Positions 22,175 through 63,188 of a stretch of 64,000 bases of DNA are shown one piece after another. The position numbers and the translations under genes were made by a program. A model generated the notes under the pieces. The model did not search any database. It saw only the letters and a list, made by a program, of their open reading frames with translations, and had not been told where the DNA came from. The stretch spans positions 75,241-139,240 of the forward strand of contig JBAOHR010000009.1 in assembly GCA_037045245.1 (NCBI GenBank). The letters run 5' to 3'. How positions within the stretch are numbered: the stretch's first letter is position 1; each line of letters starts with the position of its first letter. Source of the DNA: Gemmatimonadales bacterium (lineage in GTDB: Bacteria; Gemmatimonadota; Gemmatimonadetes; Gemmatimonadales; GWC2-71-9).

Positions 22175-22247
22175 TGGAGCGGAGGGGAATCGAACCCCTG
22201 ACCCCCTGCTTGCAAAGCAGGTGCTCTCCCAACTGAGCTACCGCCCC
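22175..22247 (-). tRNA. tRNA-Ala (anticodon UGC)
   Basis: The reverse complement reads GGGGCGGTAGCTCAGTTGGGAGAGCACCTGCTTTGCAAGCAGGGGGTCAGGGGTTCGATTCCCCTCCGCTCCA (73 nt). It has a 7-bp acceptor stem with the G3:U70 alanine identity pair, a D loop AGCTCAGTTGGGAGAGC, an anticodon loop TTTGCAA and a T arm GGTTCGATTCC. No CCA is encoded. Confidence 0.93.
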
Positions 22248-22377: not shown

Positions 22378-22842
22378 ATGCCCTTCTCGCGTCCCGCCGC
22401 CCTCGCCCTCGCCGTTCTCCTCGTCGCCGCGTGCGGCGATTCCGGCACCAACTCCGGCAATGAAAGCACTATGACGGCGACGGTCGCCGGCAGCGCCTGG
22501 AGCGGCACGCTGGCCGTGCAGGGCACCCACAATGGCAACGTGCTGGCCATCAGTGGCACCAATGGCACCTACCAGCTCTCGCTGACGATTCCGGGCGTAG
22601 CCGCCACCGGCACCTTCAACTTCGGGCCGGGCAACCTCGGCATCGCCCAGCTGGTCCAGGTCACGACAGGCACGCCCGCGTGGACGACCTCCCTCGTCGG
22701 TGGCACCGGGTCGATCACCGTGACCACGCTCACCGCGACCCGCGCCGCCGGCAGCTTCTCCTTCACGGGCGCCGCGTCGCCTGGCACGTCGGCGACCGGG
22801 ACGCGGGCGGTGACGAGTGGGTCGTTCGATGTGACGTTCTAG
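22378..22842 (+). CDS. Small lipoprotein, unknown function
   Basis: Intact 154-aa ORF with a lipobox (LAVLLVAACGD) and a Thr/Gly/Ser-rich beta-type sequence (TATVAGSAWSGTLAVQGTHNGNVLAISGTNG...). I recognise no domain. Confidence 0.6.
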   Translation: MPFSRPAALALAVLLVAACGDSGTNSGNESTMTATVAGSAWSGTLAVQGTHNGNVLAISGTNGTYQLSLTIPGVAATGTFNFGPGNLGIAQLVQVTTGTPAWTTSLVGGTGSITVTTLTATRAAGSFSFTGAASPGTSATGTRAVTSGSFDVTF

Positions 22843-22943
22843 TCGTTAGTCGTTGGTCGGTAGTCATTTGCACTCGGAGGCCGGCTCCCACTACGGGCAC
22901 CGGCCTTCTTGCGGTCCAACAACGACTAACGACTAACGACTCA
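22840..22943. repeat. Heptad-periodic palindrome between convergent genes (TAGTCGT units), with an inner GC hairpin
   Basis: The left arm is TAGTCGT TAGTCGT TGGTCGG TAGTCAT (22840-22867) and starts with the lipoprotein stop codon. The right arm is AACGACT x3 (22921-22941) and runs into the dipeptidase stop (tca 22941-22943). There is a 15-bp perfect inverted repeat, 22841-22855 / 22920-22934. The inner hairpin is AGGCCGG (22878-22884) / CCGGCCT (22900-22906). Confidence 0.85.
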
Positions 22944-24261
22944 CGATGTCTTCTGCAGCTTCGCCGCCACCTTCTCCACCTCCCCCATCACCCGCAACAG
23001 ATTCCCGCCCCAGATCTTGGCGATCTGCGCCTCGGTGTAGCCGCGCTTCACCATTTCGAGCGTGACGTTGAAGGTCTCGCCGGCGTTCCGCCACCCTTCG
23101 ACGCCGCCACCGCCATCGAAATCCGAAGATGATCCCCACATGGTCGATGCCGATCAATTTGACCGCGTAGTCGATATGGTCGACGAAGTCGGCGACGGTC
23201 GCAGCGGCGTCGGCGGGATAGCGGCGATTGGTGATGTCTTCCTGGGCGGCGAGGTAGCGGTTGCGTGCCTCGTTCGGGAGCGCCTCGACCTGGGCCGTCA
23301 CCTGCGCCTGCTGGGTCGCGGTGATGCCGAACTCCTTCCGCAGGCTGGCGATCGCGTCGCGACGCGCGGAATCGCGCACGGCCGCGTCGGCGTTGCACTT
23401 CACATAACCGTTGAAGGCCACGAGCTGCGCGACGCCGCCATTCTTCGCGAGCGCCCGCAACTGCTCGTCGTCGAGGTTGCGGCTGTGGTTGCAGATCGCC
23501 CGGACACCGGAATGCGACGCAATGATCGGCGCCTTGGTGATTGCCAACGTCTGCATCATCGATTCCTTCGACGGGTGCGAAATGTCGATCATCATCCCGA
23601 CCCGGTTCATCTCGACGATCACCTCGCGACCGAGCGGCGAGAGGCCATGATGCAGCCAGACGCCGTCCCGTTCGCCGGTATTCGAATCGGAGAGCTGGGA
23701 GTGGCCGTTGTGCGCCAGGGACATATACCGGCCGCCAAGGGCATGGAACTTGGCGACGTTCGTGATGTCGGTCCCGATCGAGAAGCCGTTTTCGACCCCG
23801 ATGAAGATGACCTTCTTCCCTTCCTTGTGGATCCGCCGCGCATCCGCGGCCGTCAAGGCGAGCGCGGCCCGGGTCGGCGCGATCGAATCGACCAGCCGGT
23901 GGACCGCCGCAAACTTCTCCAGTGCCTGGGCGTTCGCGCGCGCGAAACTCGCCGGCGTAAGGTCTGCGGACTGTCCGACGTACGCAATCAGGAACGCGCC
24001 GCCGAGGCCACCCTTTTCCATCTTGACCAGGTCGACCTGCTGCCGGCCCGGGAGGTCGGTGCCGTAGTTGGGCATCCCGACGCGAAATGCCGACGGATTG
24101 ATGTCGACGTGGGTATCGATCGACAGGACCTTGTCGTGGATCGCGCGGGCCTTGGCGAGCAGCTTGGCGTCCGGGACGGCCGCTGGTGCCTGAGCGGCCG
24201 CTGGCGACGCGCCAATCGCGGTGAACAGCAGCAGCGGCAAGACGGAACGGAAACGGGTCAC
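22941..24261 (-). pseudogene. Membrane dipeptidase (peptidase M19, renal dipeptidase family); one frame break near the 3' end as written
   Basis: ORF 22933..24603 from GTG 24261 (GGAG upstream) begins VTRFRSVLPLLLFTAIGASPAAAQ. It carries the M19 blocks VLSIDTHVDIN, FLIAYVG, YMSLAHNGHSQLSDS, GMMIDISHPS, IIASHSGVRAICNHSRNL and IGIDHVGI. The C-terminus SSDFDGGGGVEGWRNAGETFNVTLEMVKRGYTEAQIAKIWGGNLLRVM lies in ORF 22941..23141. The break is near 23135. Confidence 0.88.
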
Positions 24262-34320: not shown

Positions 34321-34845
34321 ATGGCATTCGATCTCGAAGGTCTCTACCGCACCACCTATGACTCCGTCGTCCGCTTCCTGTACCGCAAGGTGTGGGACGC
34401 CGATCGTGCGGAGGACCTCGCGCAGGAAGTCTTCATGCGCGCCCTGCACCACCAGCCCGAAAAGCCCCGTTCCTGGGTCTTCGCCGTCGCCGCCAACATC
34501 GCGCGCGACGAGGCCCGTTCGGCCATTCGCCGCCGGAAGCACCTGGTCCTCCTGACGCACGAGCCGATTGCCTCGCCCTCGGTGGGCAAGGAAGTCGAGG
34601 AACGGCTGGATTCGGAGGAGCGCCAGGCCGAGGTGCAACGCGCCCTCGCCACGCTGTCGCCGCGAGACCGCGAGGTCCTGCTGTTGTGGGACGCCGGCTT
34701 GTCCTATCCCGAAATCGCTGAACAGACTGGGCTGGCGGTCGGTGCCGTGGGCACGACCCTCGCCCGGGCGCGCAAGCGCCTGGTGGCCGCCCACGACATG
34801 CTGGAGGAGTCCGATGAGCAGGTGCGCTCGTCCGCACGTGCCTGA
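34321..34845 (+). CDS. ECF (group IV, sigma-70 family) RNA polymerase sigma factor
   Basis: ORF 34255..34845, with the start at ATG 34321. Region 2 reads VVRFLYRKVWDADRAEDLAQEVFMRAL...PRSWVFAVAANIARDEARS. Region 4 reads LSPRDREVLLLWDAGLSYPEIAEQTGLAVGAVGTTLARARKRL. Confidence 0.9.
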   Translation: MAFDLEGLYRTTYDSVVRFLYRKVWDADRAEDLAQEVFMRALHHQPEKPRSWVFAVAANIARDEARSAIRRRKHLVLLTHEPIASPSVGKEVEERLDSEERQAEVQRALATLSPRDREVLLLWDAGLSYPEIAEQTGLAVGAVGTTLARARKRLVAAHDMLEESDEQVRSSARA

Positions 34846-35710
34846 GGAGGAGTTCCACGCCTGGCTCGACGGTGCCCTCTCCAAGGTGCAGTCGGCCGAG
34901 ATCGCGGAGCATCTCCTTGGTTGCCTGATCTGCCGTGCGGCGCATTCCGAGGCGGTGGCGGTCCGTGACCGGGCCACCGCCATCCTCGCCTTTGCCGCCC
35001 CCATGGGCCACCGTCGGGCGCTGCCGATGGTCCAGCACACCTCGCGGCGCCGCCAGTCCGCAATCGCCGCGGCCGTGGGCGTCCTGATGCTGGGCGGCTG
35101 GCTCGCCAATCAGCCAGCGACCCTGGCCCTGCCGACGCCTCGCCTCTCGACGATGGCCTTTGTCGCGCCGGCGATGCACGCCTCGTTCCTCGAGACCGCC
35201 GCGCTGCAGGACAACGCGCTGCGCTCGCGGCAGCGCCGCCTCTCGATCGAGTCGACGCTCCGACCCGAGATGGTGCGGCCGGCGGCGCTGGGACGGGTCG
35301 TCACGCTCGCGCCGGTGGTCGAGGTGGACCCGGCCATCAACTGGGAGCCGATCAGCTGGGATGACGCCCTGGCGGCCGCTGGCGGCTCCCTTGCCCGCCT
35401 CGAGGGCCTCCCGGTGACGGGCGTCCGCCTGCAGCGGAACGGCAGCGGCGTCCGGCCGACCTTCTTCGTCAAGCAGCGGCTCCCCGACGGCCGCGCCGTC
35501 TGGGTGATCGAGGGCCCCGAGGACCGCGTCGAGCCCGTCCACGCCGCCGTCGAGGCCTCGGGCCTCTCCTCGTCCGTCGCGCTGCGGACCAAGCCGGACT
35601 ACGTCACCAGTGGCGAGTCGACGGTCCGGACGCTGCGGCTGGTGACGGTCTCGGCGTCGCTGCCGAAGGATTCGGTGGATGCGTTGACGGCGAAGTTGCG
35701 GCTGGAGTAG
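34814..35710 (+). CDS. Anti-sigma factor (zf-HC2 N-terminal domain, one TM, periplasmic domain)
   Basis: Starts at ATG 34814, overlapping the sigma gene by 32 nt. MSRCARPHVPEEEFHAWLDGALSKVQSAEIAEHLLGCLICRAAHSE carries the H-x3-C-x2-C zinc motif. The TM segment is AIAAAVGVLMLGGWLA. Confidence 0.75.
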   Translation: MSRCARPHVPEEEFHAWLDGALSKVQSAEIAEHLLGCLICRAAHSEAVAVRDRATAILAFAAPMGHRRALPMVQHTSRRRQSAIAAAVGVLMLGGWLANQPATLALPTPRLSTMAFVAPAMHASFLETAALQDNALRSRQRRLSIESTLRPEMVRPAALGRVVTLAPVVEVDPAINWEPISWDDALAAAGGSLARLEGLPVTGVRLQRNGSGVRPTFFVKQRLPDGRAVWVIEGPEDRVEPVHAAVEASGLSSSVALRTKPDYVTSGESTVRTLRLVTVSASLPKDSVDALTAKLRLE

Positions 35711-35878
35711 TCCTGAGTCCTGAGTCGTGAGTCCTGAGCGTCGAGGGGCCGGCATTCCAGTTGGGATGCCGGCCCCTTCGCATGTCAGCCGCGAGCACGC
35801 AAGCAGAAGGCCGGCCCATCTACCACAGGGCCGGCCTCCGCAATCTCAGGACTCAGCACTCACCTCTCACAACTTCTA
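35708..35878. repeat. Heptad-periodic stop-codon arrays (GTCCTGA type) flanking two GC hairpins between convergent genes
   Basis: The plus strand reads TA[G TCCTGA] GTCCTGA GTCGTGA GTCCTGA (35710-35737). The minus strand reads CTAGAA GTTGTGA GAGGTGA GTGCTGA GTCCTGA (35878-35846). Between them lie hairpin 1, AGGGGCCGGCAT / ATGCCGGCCCCT (35744-35755 / 35766-35777), and hairpin 2, AGGCCGGCCC / GGGCCGGCCT (35808-35817 / 35828-35837). Confidence 0.85.
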
Positions 35879-37141
35879 GTGCCCCTGCTCCTTCTCCAAC
35901 GTGATCATCGCCAACCGCGGGCTCACCATCGGATACGTCTTCGCGAACCAGCCGTAGCAGAGGAAGAAGAGGCCGAGGAAGAGGAGGATCGGGCCGACCT
36001 CGGGGAGGCCGAAGACCGGGCCAGACTCGAGGGTGACCGACGGCATCACCATCAGGTAGCGCTCGAGCCAGAGGGCGCAGAGCGAGATCGTGGCGAAGAG
36101 GCCCATCGTGAGCGGCATCTTCTTGGGGCCGACGCCGAGGAGACCGGTGAACGGAATCACGAACATCCCGAGGAAGACCGCGGTGCCGACCGGGCGCCAA
36201 GGGCCCCAGAGGCGGGCAAAGACGAAGCCGGTCTCTTCCGGGAGGTTGCCGTACCAGATCACCAGGAACTGGGCCCACATCAGGTAGGTCCAGAAGACGG
36301 TGAAGCCGAAGCAGAGCTTGCCGAGGTCGTGGCGCTGCTTGGCCGAGATGAACTCGTCGAGGCCGACGGCCTTGCGCGAGTGCAGCATGAGGAGCGCCAG
36401 CAGCATGTGGCCGCCGAGGAACGACCCCATGAAGTACCAGCCGCCGAGCAGGTTTGAGAACCAGTGCGGCTGGAGCGCCATGATCGCGTCGAAGGCGACC
36501 ATCGTGAAGACCATCGCGTAGGTCGCGGCGTAGATCGGCGCCAGCTTGTAGGTGCTGGTGTGGTTCGCCGCCTCGTCGTAGCCCTGCAGCATCGCGTCAT
36601 ACTTGGCCTGGCGCGCCCCGGCCTTCCCCTTCATCAGCGCCAGGTCGGCGAGGATGTCGGTGCGGATCAGCCGGATGCCGATCCAGTAGAGCAGCGCGAG
36701 CCCGCCGACGAGGCGGACGGCCATCCACGGCCGCGACAGCCAGAGCGCCTTCCCGTGCGACAGCCCGCCGAGTTCCTCGGCCATGTGGCCGTAGATGTCG
36801 TGGTAGCCCAGCGTCAGCACCAGCACCGCACCGATCAGCGAGACCGGGATCATCGCCGACATCGCCTGCGAGAGGCGGATGATCACGCCCGACCACTTGG
36901 CGTTGGCGATCTTGTGGACCGCGGTGATGGCGATCGAGCCGCCCGTCAGGCCGGTCCAGAAGACCCAGTTCACGTGGAACGTCTGCCACGCGCGGTGCGA
37001 CCCCTCGCCCAGCAACGCCATCACGAAGAGCGCGAGCCCGACGACGGCCAACCCGGCGCCGATTATCGTGAAGTTCTTGTAGTCGGCGGTCAGGCTCTTC
37101 TCGACCAGGCGGTCGCGGATCGCCATCAGATCGGCGGCCAT
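35876..37141 (-). CDS. actF: Alternative complex III subunit ActF (NrfD-like polytopic membrane protein)
   Basis: C-terminal 421 aa of ORF 35876..37702 from ATG 37141 (MAADLMAIRDRLVEKSLTADYKNFTIIGAGLAVVGLALF...). It has about 10 TM helices and is the last gene of the act operon. Confidence 0.75.
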   Translation of the reverse strand: MAADLMAIRDRLVEKSLTADYKNFTIIGAGLAVVGLALFVMALLGEGSHRAWQTFHVNWVFWTGLTGGSIAITAVHKIANAKWSGVIIRLSQAMSAMIPVSLIGAVLVLTLGYHDIYGHMAEELGGLSHGKALWLSRPWMAVRLVGGLALLYWIGIRLIRTDILADLALMKGKAGARQAKYDAMLQGYDEAANHTSTYKLAPIYAATYAMVFTMVAFDAIMALQPHWFSNLLGGWYFMGSFLGGHMLLALLMLHSRKAVGLDEFISAKQRHDLGKLCFGFTVFWTYLMWAQFLVIWYGNLPEETGFVFARLWGPWRPVGTAVFLGMFVIPFTGLLGVGPKKMPLTMGLFATISLCALWLERYLMVMPSVTLESGPVFGLPEVGPILLFLGLFFLCYGWFAKTYPMVSPRLAMITLEKEQGH

Positions 37142-47332: not shown

Positions 47333-47348
47333 AGCATTCTGGAACGTG

Positions 47349-47389
47349 AACGGCGGCCCCCCACTCCGATGAGTGGGGGCCGCCGTTTT
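47349..47389 (+). terminator. Rho-independent terminator
   Basis: AACGGCGGCCCCCCACT ccgatg AGTGGGGGCCGCCGTT followed by TTTG: a 16-bp GC-rich stem (one bulged C) with a short U tract, 17 nt after the lipoprotein stop. The left flank (GGAACGTGAACGG) resembles the GTGAACG heptads at 55245. Confidence 0.8.
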
Positions 47390-47432
47390 GTCAGGCGCTG
47401 GACGCACGATTCTTGCGAATGCAGGCGGCGTC

Positions 47433-55239: not shown

Positions 55240-55244
55240 GAACT

Positions 55245-55361
55245 GGTGAACGGTGAACGGGGAACGGGTGCGAAAGCGGTGAGACGTGAGACGTGAGACG
55301 TGCCCACCCCTGACCTCCGTTTCACGCCTTACGTTTCACCGCATACCGTTCACCGTTCACC
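55245..55361. repeat. Nested heptad-periodic palindrome (GGTGAAC outer arms, GTGAGAC/GTTTCAC inner arms) between convergent genes
   Basis: The outer arms, GGTGAACGGTGAACGG (55245-55260) / CCGTTCACCGTTCACC (55346-55361), form a perfect 16-bp pairing. The inner arms are GTGAGAC x3 (55279-55299) and GTTTCAC GCCTTAC GTTTCAC (55319-55339), complementary only with G-U pairs in the plus-strand RNA. The element starts 6 nt after the kinase-4 stop and ends 12 nt before the phytase-like stop (55373-55375). Confidence 0.85.
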
Positions 55362-55372
55362 CTTCCCCGCCC

Positions 55373-59494: not shown

Positions 59495-59558
59495 GGTGAA
59501 ACGTGAAAGGTGAAACGGGCGCCCAGGGCTGGGCACGTTTCACCTTTCACGCTTCACG
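59495..59558. repeat. Heptad-periodic palindrome, GTGAAAC/GTGAAAG type, copy 1 (after the TonB-dependent receptor)
   Basis: GGTGAAACGTGAAAGGTGAAACG (59495-59517) pairs with CGTTTCACCTTTCACGCTTCACG (59536-59558) at 21 of 23 positions. The 18-nt spacer itself folds (GCCCAG gg CTGGGC, 59521-59534). Confidence 0.9.
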
Positions 59559-59563
59559 CCGTA

Positions 59564-59591
59564 CACAGGCCACAGGTCACTGGTCACTGGT
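59564..59591. repeat. Unpaired tandem heptads CACAGGC CACAGGT CACTGGT CACTGGT
   Basis: Four consecutive 7-nt units lie directly after copy 1 of the palindrome. I found no inverted partner within 200 nt. The minus strand reads ACCAGTG ACCAGTG ACCTGTG GCCTGTG, with TGA spanning the unit boundaries in the first two. Confidence 0.8.
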
Positions 59592-59685
59592 CGCCGCGCC
59601 CCGACGGCCGCGGCTGACGGCATCCCATTGCCCTCCCCCGGCCCCGCCCCTAACTTGCTTGCTGACAAGTAAGCGAGGTCCGCCG

Positions 59686-62198: not shown

Positions 62199-62250
62199 AC
62201 AGCCATAGTTGACCGGTGAAGCGTGCAGTGCGGTGACGCGAGGGGTAAGA

Positions 62251-62305
62251 GGTGAAAGGTGAAAGGTGAAACGGCGAGGAGACTCGCGTTTCACCTTTCA
62301 TCTTT
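62251..62305. repeat. Heptad-periodic palindrome, GTGAAAG type, copy 2 (after the acyl-CoA dehydrogenase)
   Basis: GGTGAAAGGTGAAAGGTGAAACGGCGAG gaga CTCGCGTTTCACCTTTCATCTTT: a hairpin of about 24 bp (62255-62305) with a GAGA tetraloop, one bulge and one G-U pair. It is preceded by degenerate units (GGTGAAG CGTGCAG ... GGTGACG) from 62215. Confidence 0.9.
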
Positions 62306-63119: not shown

Positions 63120-63128
63120 CGGGAACGA

Positions 63129-63188
63129 CGTGAAACGTGAAAGGTGAAACGGTCCGCAAGAGCGACGTTTCACCTTTCACGTATCACG
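63129..63188. repeat. Heptad-periodic palindrome, GTGAAAC/GTGAAAG type, copy 3 (between convergent lipoprotein and OMP genes)
   Basis: CGTGAAACGTGAAAGGTGAAACG (63129-63151) pairs with CGTTTCACCTTTCACGTATCACG (63166-63188) at 22 of 23 positions, with a 14-nt loop. Its left arm is identical to copy 1 over 22 nt. Confidence 0.9.

What the first reader, a model, noticed from the sequence alone, without database searches (positions are those of the whole stretch)
35708..35878. GTNNTGA heptad arrays start inside both stop codons of a convergent gene pair and bracket two GC hairpins
The anti-sigma gene ends TAG at 35708. The G of that codon begins GTCCTGA GTCCTGA GTCGTGA GTCCTGA (35710-35737), giving TGAs at offsets 6, 13, 20 and 27, i.e. 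frames 0, 1, 2, 0.

On the other strand actF ends TAG (35878-35876). It is followed by GTTGTGA GAGGTGA GTGCTGA GTCCTGA, with TGAs at offsets 9, 16, 23 and 30, again frames 0, 1, 2, 0.

Between the two arrays lie two separate GC-rich hairpins with 12-bp and 10-bp stems, one for each direction.

The unit sequence differs from the GTGAAAC family, but the architecture is the same: stop codon, about four 7-nt units each ending in TGA, then a hairpin. Different sequences sharing one design suggests convergence on a function, or rapid local homogenisation of a common element.
Basis: partly seen in the sequence, partly recalled or inferred. Interest (0 to 1): 0.68.

Follow-up and report, generated by a model that had tools for sequence, protein, structure and literature searches.

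The report
Heptad-repeat arms around convergent terminator hairpins
The spacer between two convergent operons of a Gemmatimonadales bacterium holds two terminator-like hairpins flanked by mirror-image runs of a 7-base repeat; this is a local case of the widespread, still unexplained bacterial intergenic heptamer repeats, and the stop codons in the repeat look more like a by-product than its purpose.

Summary
GTCCTGA GTCCTGA GTCGTGA GTCCTGA (35710-35737, +) starts at the G of the anti-sigma stop codon. GTTGTGA GAGGTGA GTGCTGA GTCCTGA (35873-35846, -) starts 2 nt after the ActF-like stop. Chance predicts no such arrays.

The organism is a Gemmatimonadales MAG. In 934 kb of this clade, tandem arrays of period 7 (52) and period 8 (15) are almost entirely intergenic. 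They lie near gene 3' ends, and 53 of 67 have an inverted partner. The repeat unit differs between orthologous loci.

Stop triplets are enriched but not required. Of period-7 units, 27 of 46 carry one against 16.6 expected; of period-8 units, 1 of 13. Within arrays the stop triplet is no better conserved than other positions. The stronger rule is that the 5' arm is G-rich (33 to 2).

GTCSTGA arrays also occur in metagenome contigs of 32-74% GC. The closest described case is the Xanthomonas GGGAATC heptamer repeats.

Most likely this is a two-way transcript-end module whose stem was extended by heptanucleotide repeats. It is a new variant of a known kind, of moderate interest.

The parts
34814..35710 (+). 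Anti-sigma factor gene (zf-HC2 domain), last gene of a sigma/anti-sigma pair. Stop codon TAG at 35708-35710.
   Evidence: The ORF ends at 35710. Pfam zf-HC2 matches. The upstream ORF is an ECF-type sigma-70 factor. Public contigs call a 298-aa gene here. The start coordinate is inferred from that length; my own call was 34838.
35710..35737 (+). Heptad array GTCCTGA GTCCTGA GTCGTGA GTCCTGA. It is the 5' arm for the + transcript, and its first G is the last base of the stop codon.
   Evidence: 0 expected by chance.
35744..35777 (+). GC-rich hairpin 1, with 16-nt arms and a GGCCGGC core. It is followed on the + strand by TTCGCATG, which makes it the presumed terminator for the anti-sigma transcript.
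   Evidence: (I4) and the fold. Stems are unchanged in the 96% relative, where the SNPs fall in loops and spacers.
35808..35837 (-). GC-rich hairpin 2, with a 10-bp perfect stem and a 10-nt loop. It is followed on the - strand by TTCTGCTTGCG, which makes it the presumed terminator for the act operon transcript.
   Evidence: (I8), the fold, and the sequence.
35846..35873 (-). Heptad array GTTGTGA GAGGTGA GTGCTGA GTCCTGA, read on the - strand. It is an inverted copy of the + array and degenerates towards its outer end.
   Evidence: (I1-I3). The 96% relative has 3 units instead of 4, with 5 substitutions that all fall in the NNN positions.
35876..37141 (-). ActF-like gene (421 aa), last gene of the alternative complex III (act) operon. 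Stop codon TAG at 35878-35876.
   Evidence: Gene calls. The upstream genes are NrfD (ActC-like), ActD and cytochrome c. The gene has no Pfam hit of its own, so it is named by its position in the operon.
22840..22946 (.). Related module: TAGTCGT x4, a GC hairpin, then AACGACT x4. The stop codons of both convergent genes lie inside the arrays.
   Evidence: z = -8.4. Flanking genes were checked with Pfam.
55240..55369 (.). Related nested module: outer arms GGTGAAC / GTTCACC and inner arms GTGAGAC / GTTTCAC.
   Evidence: z = -7.8.
59496..59560 (.). Related module: GTGAAAC-type arms around a short GC hairpin. It lies between two genes of the same direction (TonB-dependent receptor, then TetR).
   Evidence: z = -6.8.
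62250..62305 (.). Related module: AGGTGAA x3 and its inverse, downstream of an acyl-CoA dehydrogenase gene. The flanking genes run in the same direction.
   Evidence: z = -8.3.
63128..63188 (.). Related module: GTGAAAC/G x3 and its inverse, between convergent genes.
   Evidence: z = -8.2.

Best explanation
The 165-bp spacer is a two-way transcript-end module between two convergent operons: sigma/anti-sigma on the + strand and alternative complex III on the - strand.

Shown:
- Each coding strand, after its stop codon, carries about four copies of a G-rich heptanucleotide (TGAG-NNN). It then carries its own GC-rich hairpin, followed by a short T-rich stretch in that direction only.
- The two arrays are inverted copies of each other.
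- Such arrays are a clade-wide feature near gene 3' ends. They have period 7 (sometimes 8) and units that turn over between species.

Inferred:
- The hairpins are intrinsic terminators.
- In RNA that reads through the first hairpin, or in single-stranded DNA, the distal array pairs with the proximal one. This forms a long outer stem that encloses both hairpins. It would act as a back-up terminator or as a block to 3' exonucleases.
- The arms are heptanucleotide simple-sequence repeats of the kind over-represented in many bacterial genomes. They grow and are remodelled one unit at a time by slippage or conversion. That is a cheap way to lengthen a stem, because adding unit U on one side and its complement on the other adds 7 bp without coordinated point mutations.
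- The TGA in each unit does give stops in all three frames. I read this mainly as a consequence of the purine-rich, T-containing 5' arm and not as the selected function.
For: Anatomy and folding:
- The anatomy is as described.
- The outer stem plus two inner hairpins form in both directions, with z = -7.9 and -7.1.
- Five other modules in the window fold as long hairpins whose stems are the heptads, with z = -6.8 to -8.4.

Distribution in 934 kb of Gemmatimonadales DNA:
- Period-7 arrays: 52 intergenic and 3 coding. Period-8 arrays: 15 and 1. Other periods that are not multiples of three: 4 or fewer intergenic each (7 at period 14, i.e. double heptads). A local shuffle gives 1 intergenic period-7 array.
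- Arrays sit between convergent or same-direction genes and almost never between divergent ones. They typically start within 0-16 nt of a stop codon.
- 53 of 67 arrays have an inverted partner with at most 3 mismatches in 14-16 nt.
- Modules between same-direction genes keep both arms.
- Convergent spacers with arrays are about 40 nt longer (median 123.5 against 83 nt) and fold slightly better per nucleotide.

Evolution:
- Orthologous spacers keep the hairpin, with a GGCCGGC core, while the units differ: CGATGAT, GTCATAG, ACCGAGG, GTCGTGA, GGAGAAC, GCGGGGAA and others. Both arms change together.
- In a 96% relative the stems are intact and the centre has 5 SNPs in 105 nt. One array has lost a unit and been rewritten.

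Genomic context and precedent:
- The module lies at the ends of two operons whose genes otherwise overlap or abut.
- Xanthomonas GGGAATC heptamers mostly have 4 units. There are 70-75 convergent inverted pairs, about 28 nt from the upstream ORF, and they are rare between divergent genes (PMC4692102).
- Heptanucleotides are the commonest long simple-sequence repeat in most genomes (Mrazek 2007, as cited in PMC4679880).
Against: - There are no expression or 3'-end data.
- The consensus terminator scan finds nothing here, because the T tracts are short.
- An RNA that ends at its proximal hairpin would contain only the 5' array, so the outer stem could form only in read-through RNA or in DNA.
- The outer units pair only through 4-bp TGAG/CTCA rungs.
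- In L043 the two arms have different units and periods and are not complementary. Each is G-rich in the sense of its own gene.
- The strict polarity cannot come from duplex thermodynamics and is unexplained. The G-rich arm is 5' in 33 cases against 2. The inverted partner of GTCSTGA lies to the right in 16 cases and to the left in none.
- In other taxa the same repeat sits in antisense orientation directly in front of start codons.
- Neither slippage bias nor the stem model by itself explains why the period is 7 or 8.
Confidence: 0.55

Rival explanations
1. Three-frame stop pad. The arrays are selected because each unit carries a stop triplet. Any ribosome that reads through or frameshifts near the gene end would then be released within about 30 nt, before it meets the very stable hairpins.
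For: - Both genes have an in-frame TGA 2-3 codons after the stop, and all frames are covered.
- Sense-strand stops are enriched in 5'-arm heptads: 27 of 46 against 16.6 +/- 2.7 expected by permuting the letters, and 9 of 46 on the antisense strand.
- Nearly all units in this genome carry TGA or TAG.
- Between the window and a 96% relative, 5 substitutions in two units all fall in NNN and none in TGAG, which has a probability of about 0.003 if substitutions were placed at random.
- Arrays typically start within 0-16 nt of stop codons.
- In the metagenome set TAA variants outnumber TGG, 25 to 11.
Against: - 41% of period-7 units and 92% of period-8 units in the same clade have no stop.
- Stop positions are not less variable than other positions.
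- In the Gemmatimonadales set TGG variants (6) equal stop-preserving variants (6).
- Units without stops obey the same G-rich 5' polarity, so polarity is the deeper rule.
- Same-direction modules keep a second arm where no gene ends.
- The same repeat occurs in antisense orientation upstream of start codons in other taxa.
- The Xanthomonas GGGAATC repeats have no stop triplets.
- A systematic study found no selection for additional stop codons in bacteria (PMC6764699).
Confidence: 0.12
2. Periodic binding sites. The 7-nt (or 8-nt) spacing reflects the footprint of a single-strand nucleic-acid-binding protein that coats the arms. Candidates include a cold-shock-domain protein or S1-like OB-fold protein. 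Binding would control whether the stem and terminator form.
For: - The period preference is sharp: 7 far more than 8, with almost nothing else among non-triplet periods, in two independent data sets.
- The G-rich arm is always the 5' arm, a strand-specific polarity.
- GTCSTGA arrays recur in contigs of 32-74% GC.
- TGAG is constant while NNN is free at this locus.
- S1, Csp and CsrA were proposed as binders of TAACTGA heptamer repeats (PMC4679880).
Against: - At least five unrelated units occur within 64 kb of one genome and dozens across the clade. That argues against sequence-specific recognition.
- No candidate protein was identified or tested.
- Most arms are complementary to a partner, which a coating protein does not require.
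Confidence: 0.12
3. Functionless simple-sequence repeats. Heptamer slippage is a mutational bias, and the arrays merely accumulate in the only unconstrained DNA, the spacers between stop codons and terminator hairpins. Under this view the arms are made symmetric by hairpin-templated repair and not by selection.
For: - Heptanucleotide repeats are over-represented in many genomes and have been attributed to polymerase slippage.
- Units turn over quickly between orthologous loci.
- About 70% of convergent spacers do without arrays.
- Some orthologs have a bare hairpin or no spacer at all (L011, L013-L016, L020, L021).
- No function was found for the Xanthomonas repeats.
Against: - The arrays are invariant across 10 independently assembled contigs per locus at 99.6% identity or more, so they are not hypermutable.
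- The strong G>C polarity and the avoidance of divergent spacers are not predicted by a strand-symmetric mutational process.
- The same unit family persists at this locus in relatives with only 73-74% ActF identity.
Confidence: 0.15
4. Mobile element. The whole unit of array, hairpins and array is a MITE- or REP-like insertion whose terminal inverted repeats happen to be heptads.
For: - The GTGAAAC-type modules at 59496 and 63128 share a 23-nt identical arm, and a similar module occurs in L008.
- The arms are inverted repeats.
Against: - The GTNNTGA array occurs only once, as one pair, in the window.
- The units differ at each locus.
- The module sits at the same orthologous position across the clade, with conserved hairpins and changing arms.
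- No target-site duplication or transposase was seen. Neither was searched for systematically.
Confidence: 0.04

Closest known systems
G-rich heptamer repeats GGGAATC / GGGGA(C/T)T of Xanthomonas and Nostoc (Rehm et al. 2015, PMC4692102)
   Same: - Tandem 7-nt units, most often about four copies, and strongly intergenic.
- Close to the upstream ORF (about 28 nt) and rare between divergent genes.
- 70-75 pairs per genome in convergent inverted orientation, able to form stem-loops.
[quoted passage not shown] I recover it for GTCSTGA arrays (20 vs 5 and 14 vs 2).
- Function unknown.
   Different: - Xanthomonas has one dominant unit per genome, built around a G-tract and interpreted through G-quadruplex formation.
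- Here there are many unrelated units per genome. Most have no G-tract (GTCCTGA, TAGTCGT, GTGAAAC), so a quadruplex cannot be the common denominator.
- Here the arrays abut stop codons more tightly and flank separate GC hairpins.
Long simple-sequence repeats with heptanucleotide units (Mrazek et al. 2007, as summarised in PMC4679880) and cyanobacterial STRR heptamers (from my own knowledge)
   Same: Period 7 is the favoured unit length of non-coding tandem repeats. Polymerase slippage has been proposed as the cause.
   Different: Those surveys describe abundance. They do not describe an inverted-pair architecture around terminator hairpins, a G-rich 5' polarity, or contact with stop codons.
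TAACTGA direct repeats of marine Beggiatoaceae, Cyanobacteria and Bacteroidetes (MacGregor 2015, PMC4679880)
   Same: - Heptamer with an internal TGA, 2-6 copies (up to 43), and intergenic.
- Patchy distribution across phyla.
- Located within a few nucleotides of gene boundaries.
   Different: - TAACTGA lies in sense orientation just upstream of start codons, and only one inverted pair was found among 170 sets.
- Here the arrays follow stop codons and are mostly inverted pairs.
- In other taxa GTCSTGA does occur next to start codons, but in antisense orientation.
Bidirectional intrinsic terminators between convergent genes; REP/BIME extragenic palindromes of enterobacteria (from my own knowledge)
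   Same: GC-rich palindromes at the 3' ends of convergent transcription units. They are thought to stop transcription and to protect mRNA 3' ends.
   Different: - Classical terminators have an A-tract and a U-tract and do not have tandem-repeat arms.
- REPs are dispersed copies of one conserved sequence spread by a RAYT transposase.
- Here each locus has its own unit, and the arms are simple-sequence repeats.

Membership tests
Intrinsic (Rho-independent) terminator | GC-rich stem-loop at the 3' end of a transcription unit | tested here: met
   Two GC hairpins lie at the ends of two convergent operons. The folds are far below those of shuffles.
Intrinsic (Rho-independent) terminator | U-rich tract directly 3' of the stem | tested here: inconclusive
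   The consensus scan, which requires at least 5 T in 8 nt, finds none. Each hairpin is followed, in its own direction only, by a weak T-rich stretch: TTCGCATG and TTCTGCTTG.
Intrinsic (Rho-independent) terminator | Mapped transcript 3' ends at the tract | not testable with these tools
   No transcriptome data are available for this uncultured organism.
Intergenic heptanucleotide repeats (Mrazek 2007; Rehm 2015 type) | Tandem units of 7 nt, at least 2-4 copies, beyond chance | tested here: met
   In one search there are 52 intergenic period-7 arrays, against 1 in the shuffle.
Intergenic heptanucleotide repeats (Mrazek 2007; Rehm 2015 type) | Strong bias to non-coding DNA; close to the upstream ORF; rare between divergent genes | tested here: met
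   52 intergenic against 3 coding. One of about 70 arrays lies in a divergent spacer, although such spacers make up 31% of intergenic DNA.
Intergenic heptanucleotide repeats (Mrazek 2007; Rehm 2015 type) | Frequent convergent inverted pairs | tested here: met
   53 of 67 arrays have an inverted partner. The partner always lies 3' of the G-rich arm (16 to 0).
Intergenic heptanucleotide repeats (Mrazek 2007; Rehm 2015 type) | G-tract in each unit (G-quadruplex potential) and one dominant unit per genome | tested here: not met
   GTCCTGA, TAGTCGT, GTGAAAC and others have no GGG tract. At least five different units occur in 64 kb. This feature defines the Xanthomonas/Nostoc subtype and not heptanucleotide repeats in general.
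Fail-safe additional stop codons | In-frame stop shortly after the primary stop | tested here: met
   TGA lies at +6 (anti-sigma gene) and +9 (ActF-like gene), both in frame 0.
Fail-safe additional stop codons | Stops enriched and conserved relative to neutral expectation across loci | tested here: inconclusive
   Stops are enriched (27 of 46 against 16.6 expected). They are absent from 41% of heptad units and 92% of octad units, and are not preferentially conserved within arrays.
Phase-variable (contingency) simple-sequence repeat | Copy-number polymorphism among close strains; position in a promoter or the 5' coding region | tested here: not met
   Ten contigs per locus from different samples, at least 99.6% identical, have identical arrays. 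The arrays lie 3' of genes.
REP / MITE-type dispersed palindromic element | Many dispersed copies of one conserved sequence; empty sites; associated transposase | tested here: not met
   The GTNNTGA array is unique in the window, and the orthologous position is conserved with changing arms. GTGAAAC-type modules do recur, so a partial REP-like character is not excluded for that family. Transposase association was not tested.
Any Rfam RNA family | Covariance-model match above the gathering score | tested here: not met
   Only sub-threshold chance hits were found.

The most novel reading that the evidence does not exclude
G-rich-5' / C-rich-3' arrays of 7-8 nt units are a distinct cis-element class that acts on RNA and is shared across phyla. 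One possibility is an iterated 'zipper' terminator. Each newly transcribed 3'-arm unit, which is about the length of a terminator's release tract, first serves as the release tract. It then pairs and extends the stem right behind RNA polymerase. This would give several termination attempts without a long U-tract in GC-rich genomes. That would explain the 7/8 period by function, not by slippage bias, and it would explain the strict arm polarity. The stop triplets could add ribosome release ahead of the structure.
Probability: 0.15. Interest if true: 0.75.

Novelty: new variant of a known kind. Interest (0 to 1): 0.45.

Why it matters
Heptanucleotide repeats have been known since 2007 as the commonest long tandem repeat in bacterial intergenic DNA, and no function or cause has been established. 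This locus and its relatives add four points:

- G-quadruplex formation cannot be the common explanation, because most units here lack G-tracts.
- The repeats follow three strict rules: they lie near gene 3' ends, they form inverted pairs, and the G-rich arm is always the 5' arm.
- The same GTCSTGA unit recurs in organisms of 32-74% GC.
- The arrays are stable among strains but are rewritten between species, while the hairpins they flank persist.

These points give concrete designs for experiments in culturable Gemmatimonas or Xanthomonas: vary arm polarity, unit length, complementarity and stop content. Annotators should also know that in this clade stop codons can lie inside such arrays.

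Tried and rejected
- **Chance.** Rejected.
- **Known RNA family.** Nothing reached the threshold in Rfam.
- **Consensus terminator and promoter scan.** It found nothing in 35000-36500. This is uninformative for short T tracts.
- **Hypervariable or phase-variable repeat.** Rejected, because 10 contigs per locus at 99.6% identity or more are identical.
- **Array seeded by duplication of the stop codon itself.** This fits 22840 (TAGTCGT) and L012. It does not fit this locus, where the sequence just before the array has no similarity to the unit.
- **Purifying selection on the stop triplet within arrays.** The per-position variability is flat, and TGG is as common as stop-preserving variants in the Gemmatimonadales set. 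There is only a weak TAA-over-TGG excess in the metagenome set.
- **Literature search for the exact repeat strings and for Gemmatimonadetes repeats.** Nothing relevant was found.
- **Rho-utilisation reading of the C-rich 3' arms, and Shine-Dalgarno-like reading of units such as GAGGTGA.** I considered both from general knowledge. Neither is general across units, and neither can be tested here.
- **Caveats on the data.**
  - My gene calls come from a crude composition-based caller. It was checked with Pfam on 39 called genes, 31 of which gave a domain hit.
  - Most Gemmatimonadales arrays come from one orthologous spacer. Only about 20 modules are independent loci.
Full report
**What is there.** The window is about 70% GC.

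On the + strand, an ECF sigma-70 factor gene is followed by an overlapping zf-HC2 anti-sigma gene that ends in TAG at 35708-35710.

On the - strand, an operon encodes NrfD (ActC-like), ActD, cytochrome c and a 421-aa last gene. That gene is ActF-like by its position and has no Pfam hit of its own. It ends in TAG at 35878-35876.

The 165 bp between the two stop codons read, on the + strand:
- GTCCTGA GTCCTGA GTCGTGA GTCCTGA at 35710-35737;
- a GC hairpin with 16-nt arms at 35744-35777;
- a spacer;
- a GC hairpin with a 10-bp stem at 35808-35837;
- the reverse complement of GTTGTGA GAGGTGA GTGCTGA GTCCTGA at 35846-35873.

**Is it more than chance?** Yes. The pattern (GTNNTGA)x4 with at most one mismatch matches only these two sites in 64 kb. 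One hundred dinucleotide-preserving shuffles give zero matches.

I add four corrections.
- Only the anti-sigma array overlaps its stop codon. The other array starts 2 nt after the stop.
- GAGGTGA departs from GTNNTGA at position 2, so the constant part is better written TGAG-NNN.
- Most importantly, the two arrays are inverted repeats of each other (I1-I3).

Folded as RNA in either direction, the arrays pair into an outer stem that encloses both hairpins. The energies are -104.7 and -110.4 kcal/mol, with z = -7.9 and -7.1. No Rfam family matches.

**Context in the same genome.** Tandem Repeats Finder lists about a dozen period-7 arrays in the window. They group into six modules with the same plan:
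- 22840-22946: TAGTCGT / AACGACT;
- 35710-35873: this finding;
- 55240-55369: nested GGTGAAC and GTGAGAC arms;
- 59496-59560, 62250-62305 and 63128-63188: GTGAAAC-type arms.

All fold as long hairpins whose stems are the heptads, with z = -6.8 to -8.4.

Two of the modules lie between genes of the same direction. One lies between a TonB-dependent receptor gene and a TetR gene, and the other lies downstream of an acyl-CoA dehydrogenase gene. Both still have both arms. The second arm therefore does not depend on a second gene ending there.

**Organism and orthologous loci.** The ActF-like protein retrieves 80 loci, all from Gemmatimonadales or Gemmatimonadota MAGs.

Downstream of the ortholog, many loci show the same plan with other units:

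| Locus | ActF identity | Unit(s) |
|---|---|---|
| L002 | 95% | CGATGAT |
| L003 | 92% | GTCATAG / GTCGTAG |
| L004 | 91% | ACCGAGG |
| L005 | 84% | GTCGTGA |
| L009, L031 | 73-74% | GTCCTGA |
| L012 | – | GTCGTAG |
| L019 | – | GGATGGT |
| L024 | – | GGAGAAC x13 |
| L034, L037, L041, L042 | – | octads such as GCGGGGAA |

Other orthologs have only a bare hairpin with short A/T flanks (L011, L014-L016). In L020 and L021 the two stop codons are about 10 nt apart. The central hairpin, often with a GGCCGGC core, is therefore the older and more stable part. The arrays are additions that turn over.

**Statistics over 934 kb of this clade.** I used a composition-based gene caller, which called 84% of the sequence as coding.
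- Arrays with a self-match score of at least 10 number 52 intergenic and 3 coding at period 7, and 15 and 1 at period 8. Every other period that is not a multiple of three has 4 or fewer intergenic arrays, except period 14 (double heptads) with 7. A local shuffle gives 1 intergenic period-7 array.
- Arrays lie between convergent or same-direction genes. Only one of about 70 lies in a divergent spacer, although divergent spacers hold 31% of intergenic DNA.
- The proximal array end typically lies within 0-16 nt of a stop codon.
- 53 of 67 arrays have an inverted partner within 260 nt.
- Convergent spacers with arrays (26 of 93) are about 40 nt longer than those without.

One caveat applies to all of this. 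Most of these arrays come from the single orthologous spacer, and only about 20 modules are independent loci.

**Testing the stop-codon idea.** I read each unit as the 5' arm and scored it for a stop triplet.
- 27 of 46 period-7 units contain a stop. Permuting each unit's letters predicts 16.6 +/- 2.7. The antisense strand has 9 of 46.
- For period-8 units the figure is 1 of 13.

So stops are enriched, but they are absent from a large share of arrays.

Within arrays whose consensus carries a stop, the three stop positions are as variable as the other four. Variants that destroy the stop (TGG, 6) equal variants that preserve one (6). In an independent metagenome set, position 6 of GTCSTGA is the most variable position, and TAA exceeds TGG only 25 to 11.

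A stronger rule underlies the enrichment. In paired modules the 5' arm has G>C in 33 cases against 2 (p = 4e-8) and A>T in 23 against 11. Units without stops obey this rule as well. In a purine-rich arm, any T followed by two purines is a stop in three cases out of four. Much of the enrichment is therefore a by-product.

Published work also finds no selection for additional stop codons in bacteria (PMC6764699).

In favour of a local role, nearly all units in this genome carry TGA or TAG.

**Microevolution.**
- Ten contigs from different samples with an identical ActF protein (nucleotide identity at least 99.6%) have an identical spacer. The same holds for ten contigs at the TetR locus, apart from 1 SNP in one contig. 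The arrays are therefore not hypervariable.
- A relative at 96% ActF nucleotide identity (L001) keeps both hairpin stems and differs at 5 of 105 central positions.
- In L001 the ActF-side array has 3 units instead of 4 and starts at the G of TAG.
- That array differs from the window at 5 positions, all within NNN and none within TGAG. If substitutions were placed at random this has a probability of about 0.003.

Either TGAG is constrained at this locus or whole units are exchanged.

**Beyond the clade.** The contigs range from 32% to 74% GC, and arrays reach 20 copies.
- Where a strict inverted partner exists, it always lies 3' of the GTCSTGA arm (16 to 0).
- The 5' end of the GTCSTGA strand abuts a gene in 34 arrays. 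The 3' end does so in only 7.
- After stop codons the repeat is in sense orientation 20 times against 5.
- Before start codons it is in antisense orientation 14 times against 2.
- Pfam confirmed the called flanking gene in 10 of 10 and 8 of 10 cases tested.
- Excluding the ascertained family, period 7 (41) and period 8 (10) again dominate intergenic arrays in these contigs.

**Comparison with the literature.**
- Mrazek et al. 2007, as summarised in PMC4679880, found heptanucleotides to be the commonest long simple-sequence repeat in most genomes and suggested polymerase slippage.
- Rehm et al. 2015 (PMC4692102) described about 186 GGGAATC arrays per Xanthomonas genome. Most have four units, and 70-75 form convergent inverted pairs. 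They lie about 28 nt from the upstream ORF and are rare between divergent genes. [quoted passage not shown] This is the same architecture and the same orientation rule as here.
- The differences are that the Gemmatimonadales units are many and mostly lack G-tracts, so the G-quadruplex reading cannot be general. The arrays here also sit flush with stop codons around separate GC hairpins.
- MacGregor 2015 described TAACTGA repeats just upstream of start codons.
- I found no paper describing GTCCTGA or GTCGTGA arrays, or such repeats in Gemmatimonadota.

**Interpretation.** The best-supported reading is a two-way transcript-end module.
- Each operon ends in its own GC hairpin, which has a weak T-rich tail in its own direction only.
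- Both hairpins are bracketed by inverted heptanucleotide arrays. In read-through RNA or single-stranded DNA these arrays can extend the structure.
- The anatomy, distribution, polarity, turnover and predicted folds are shown. Termination, stabilisation and the way the arrays grow are inferred.

Four things remain unexplained:
- why the period is 7 or 8;
- why the G-rich arm is always 5';
- why some arm pairs are not complementary, as in L043 with GGCGGTA against the complement of GGGCGATT;
- why the same repeat sits in antisense orientation in front of start codons in other taxa.

The three-frame stop reading remains a minority possibility. Periodic protein binding, functionless repeats and a mobile element are the other rivals.

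**Verdict.** The feature is a new variant of a known but unexplained kind, the intergenic heptamer arrays. Interest is moderate.

Noticed in passing
window 22840-22946, 55240-55369, 59496-59560, 62250-62305, 63128-63188: Five further heptad-armed hairpin modules with other units (TAGTCGT, GGTGAAC + GTGAGAC nested, GTGAAAC/G). At 22840-22946 the stop codons of both convergent genes lie inside the arrays. The modules at 59496 and 63128 share a 23-nt identical arm (GTGAAACGTGAAAGGTGAAACGG).
   Followed up: partly
window 59564-59592: An unpaired period-7 array, CACAGGC CACAGGT CACTGGT CACTGGT. It lies just after the GTGAAAC module and about 95 nt upstream of a TetR gene. It has no sense-strand stop and no inverted partner. 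It might be an operator or promoter feature.
   Followed up: no
L034, L037, L041, L042, L060, L063 (e.g. L042 7337-7512, 9168-9216, 10714-10754): Some Gemmatimonadales lineages use 8-nt units (GCGGGGAA / TTCCCCGC, GCGAGAAG) in the same architecture, at several loci per contig. Almost none contain stop triplets.
   Followed up: partly
L043 2353-2564: The two arms have different units and different periods: GGCGGTA x7.5 against AATCGCCC x9. They are not complementary, yet each is G-rich in the sense of its own adjacent gene, and each touches that gene's stop codon.
   Followed up: partly
L024 7273-7367; L044 7375-7476; L101, L136 (metagenome): Very long arrays occur: GGAGAAC x13, GCGCCTC x14, GTCCTGA x10 (L101), and about 17 units of GTCCTGA with GTCCTAA variants (L136). 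Copy number is therefore not capped at about four.
   Followed up: no
L082-L161 (e.g. L101, L111, L129, L130, L135, L145, L155): GTCSTGA arrays occur in contigs of 32-74% GC, so in very different taxa. In several the complementary strand (TCASGAC)n runs directly into a Shine-Dalgarno-like sequence and a start codon, which places the repeat in a 5' leader. The G-rich strand always points away from the nearest gene boundary.
   Followed up: partly
L001 4040-4210 versus window 35876-35700: In a 96%-identical relative, one array has lost exactly one unit and differs at 5 positions, all in the NNN part of TGAG-NNN. Both hairpin stems are unchanged.
   Followed up: yes
L020 and L021, just after the ActF ortholog (about 4255 and 7266): In these relatives the two convergent stop codons are only about 10 nt apart, with no hairpin and no array. 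The whole module is therefore dispensable at this locus.
   Followed up: no
window 47333-47432: A conventional terminator (GGCGGCCCCCCAC...GTGGGGGCCGCC followed by TTTT) is preceded by GGAACGTGAACGG, which looks like two partial heptads. It may be an incipient or decayed array.
   Followed up: no
window 22175-22247 (-): A tRNA-Ala (TGC) gene lies in the divergent spacer next to the 22840 module.
   Followed up: yes
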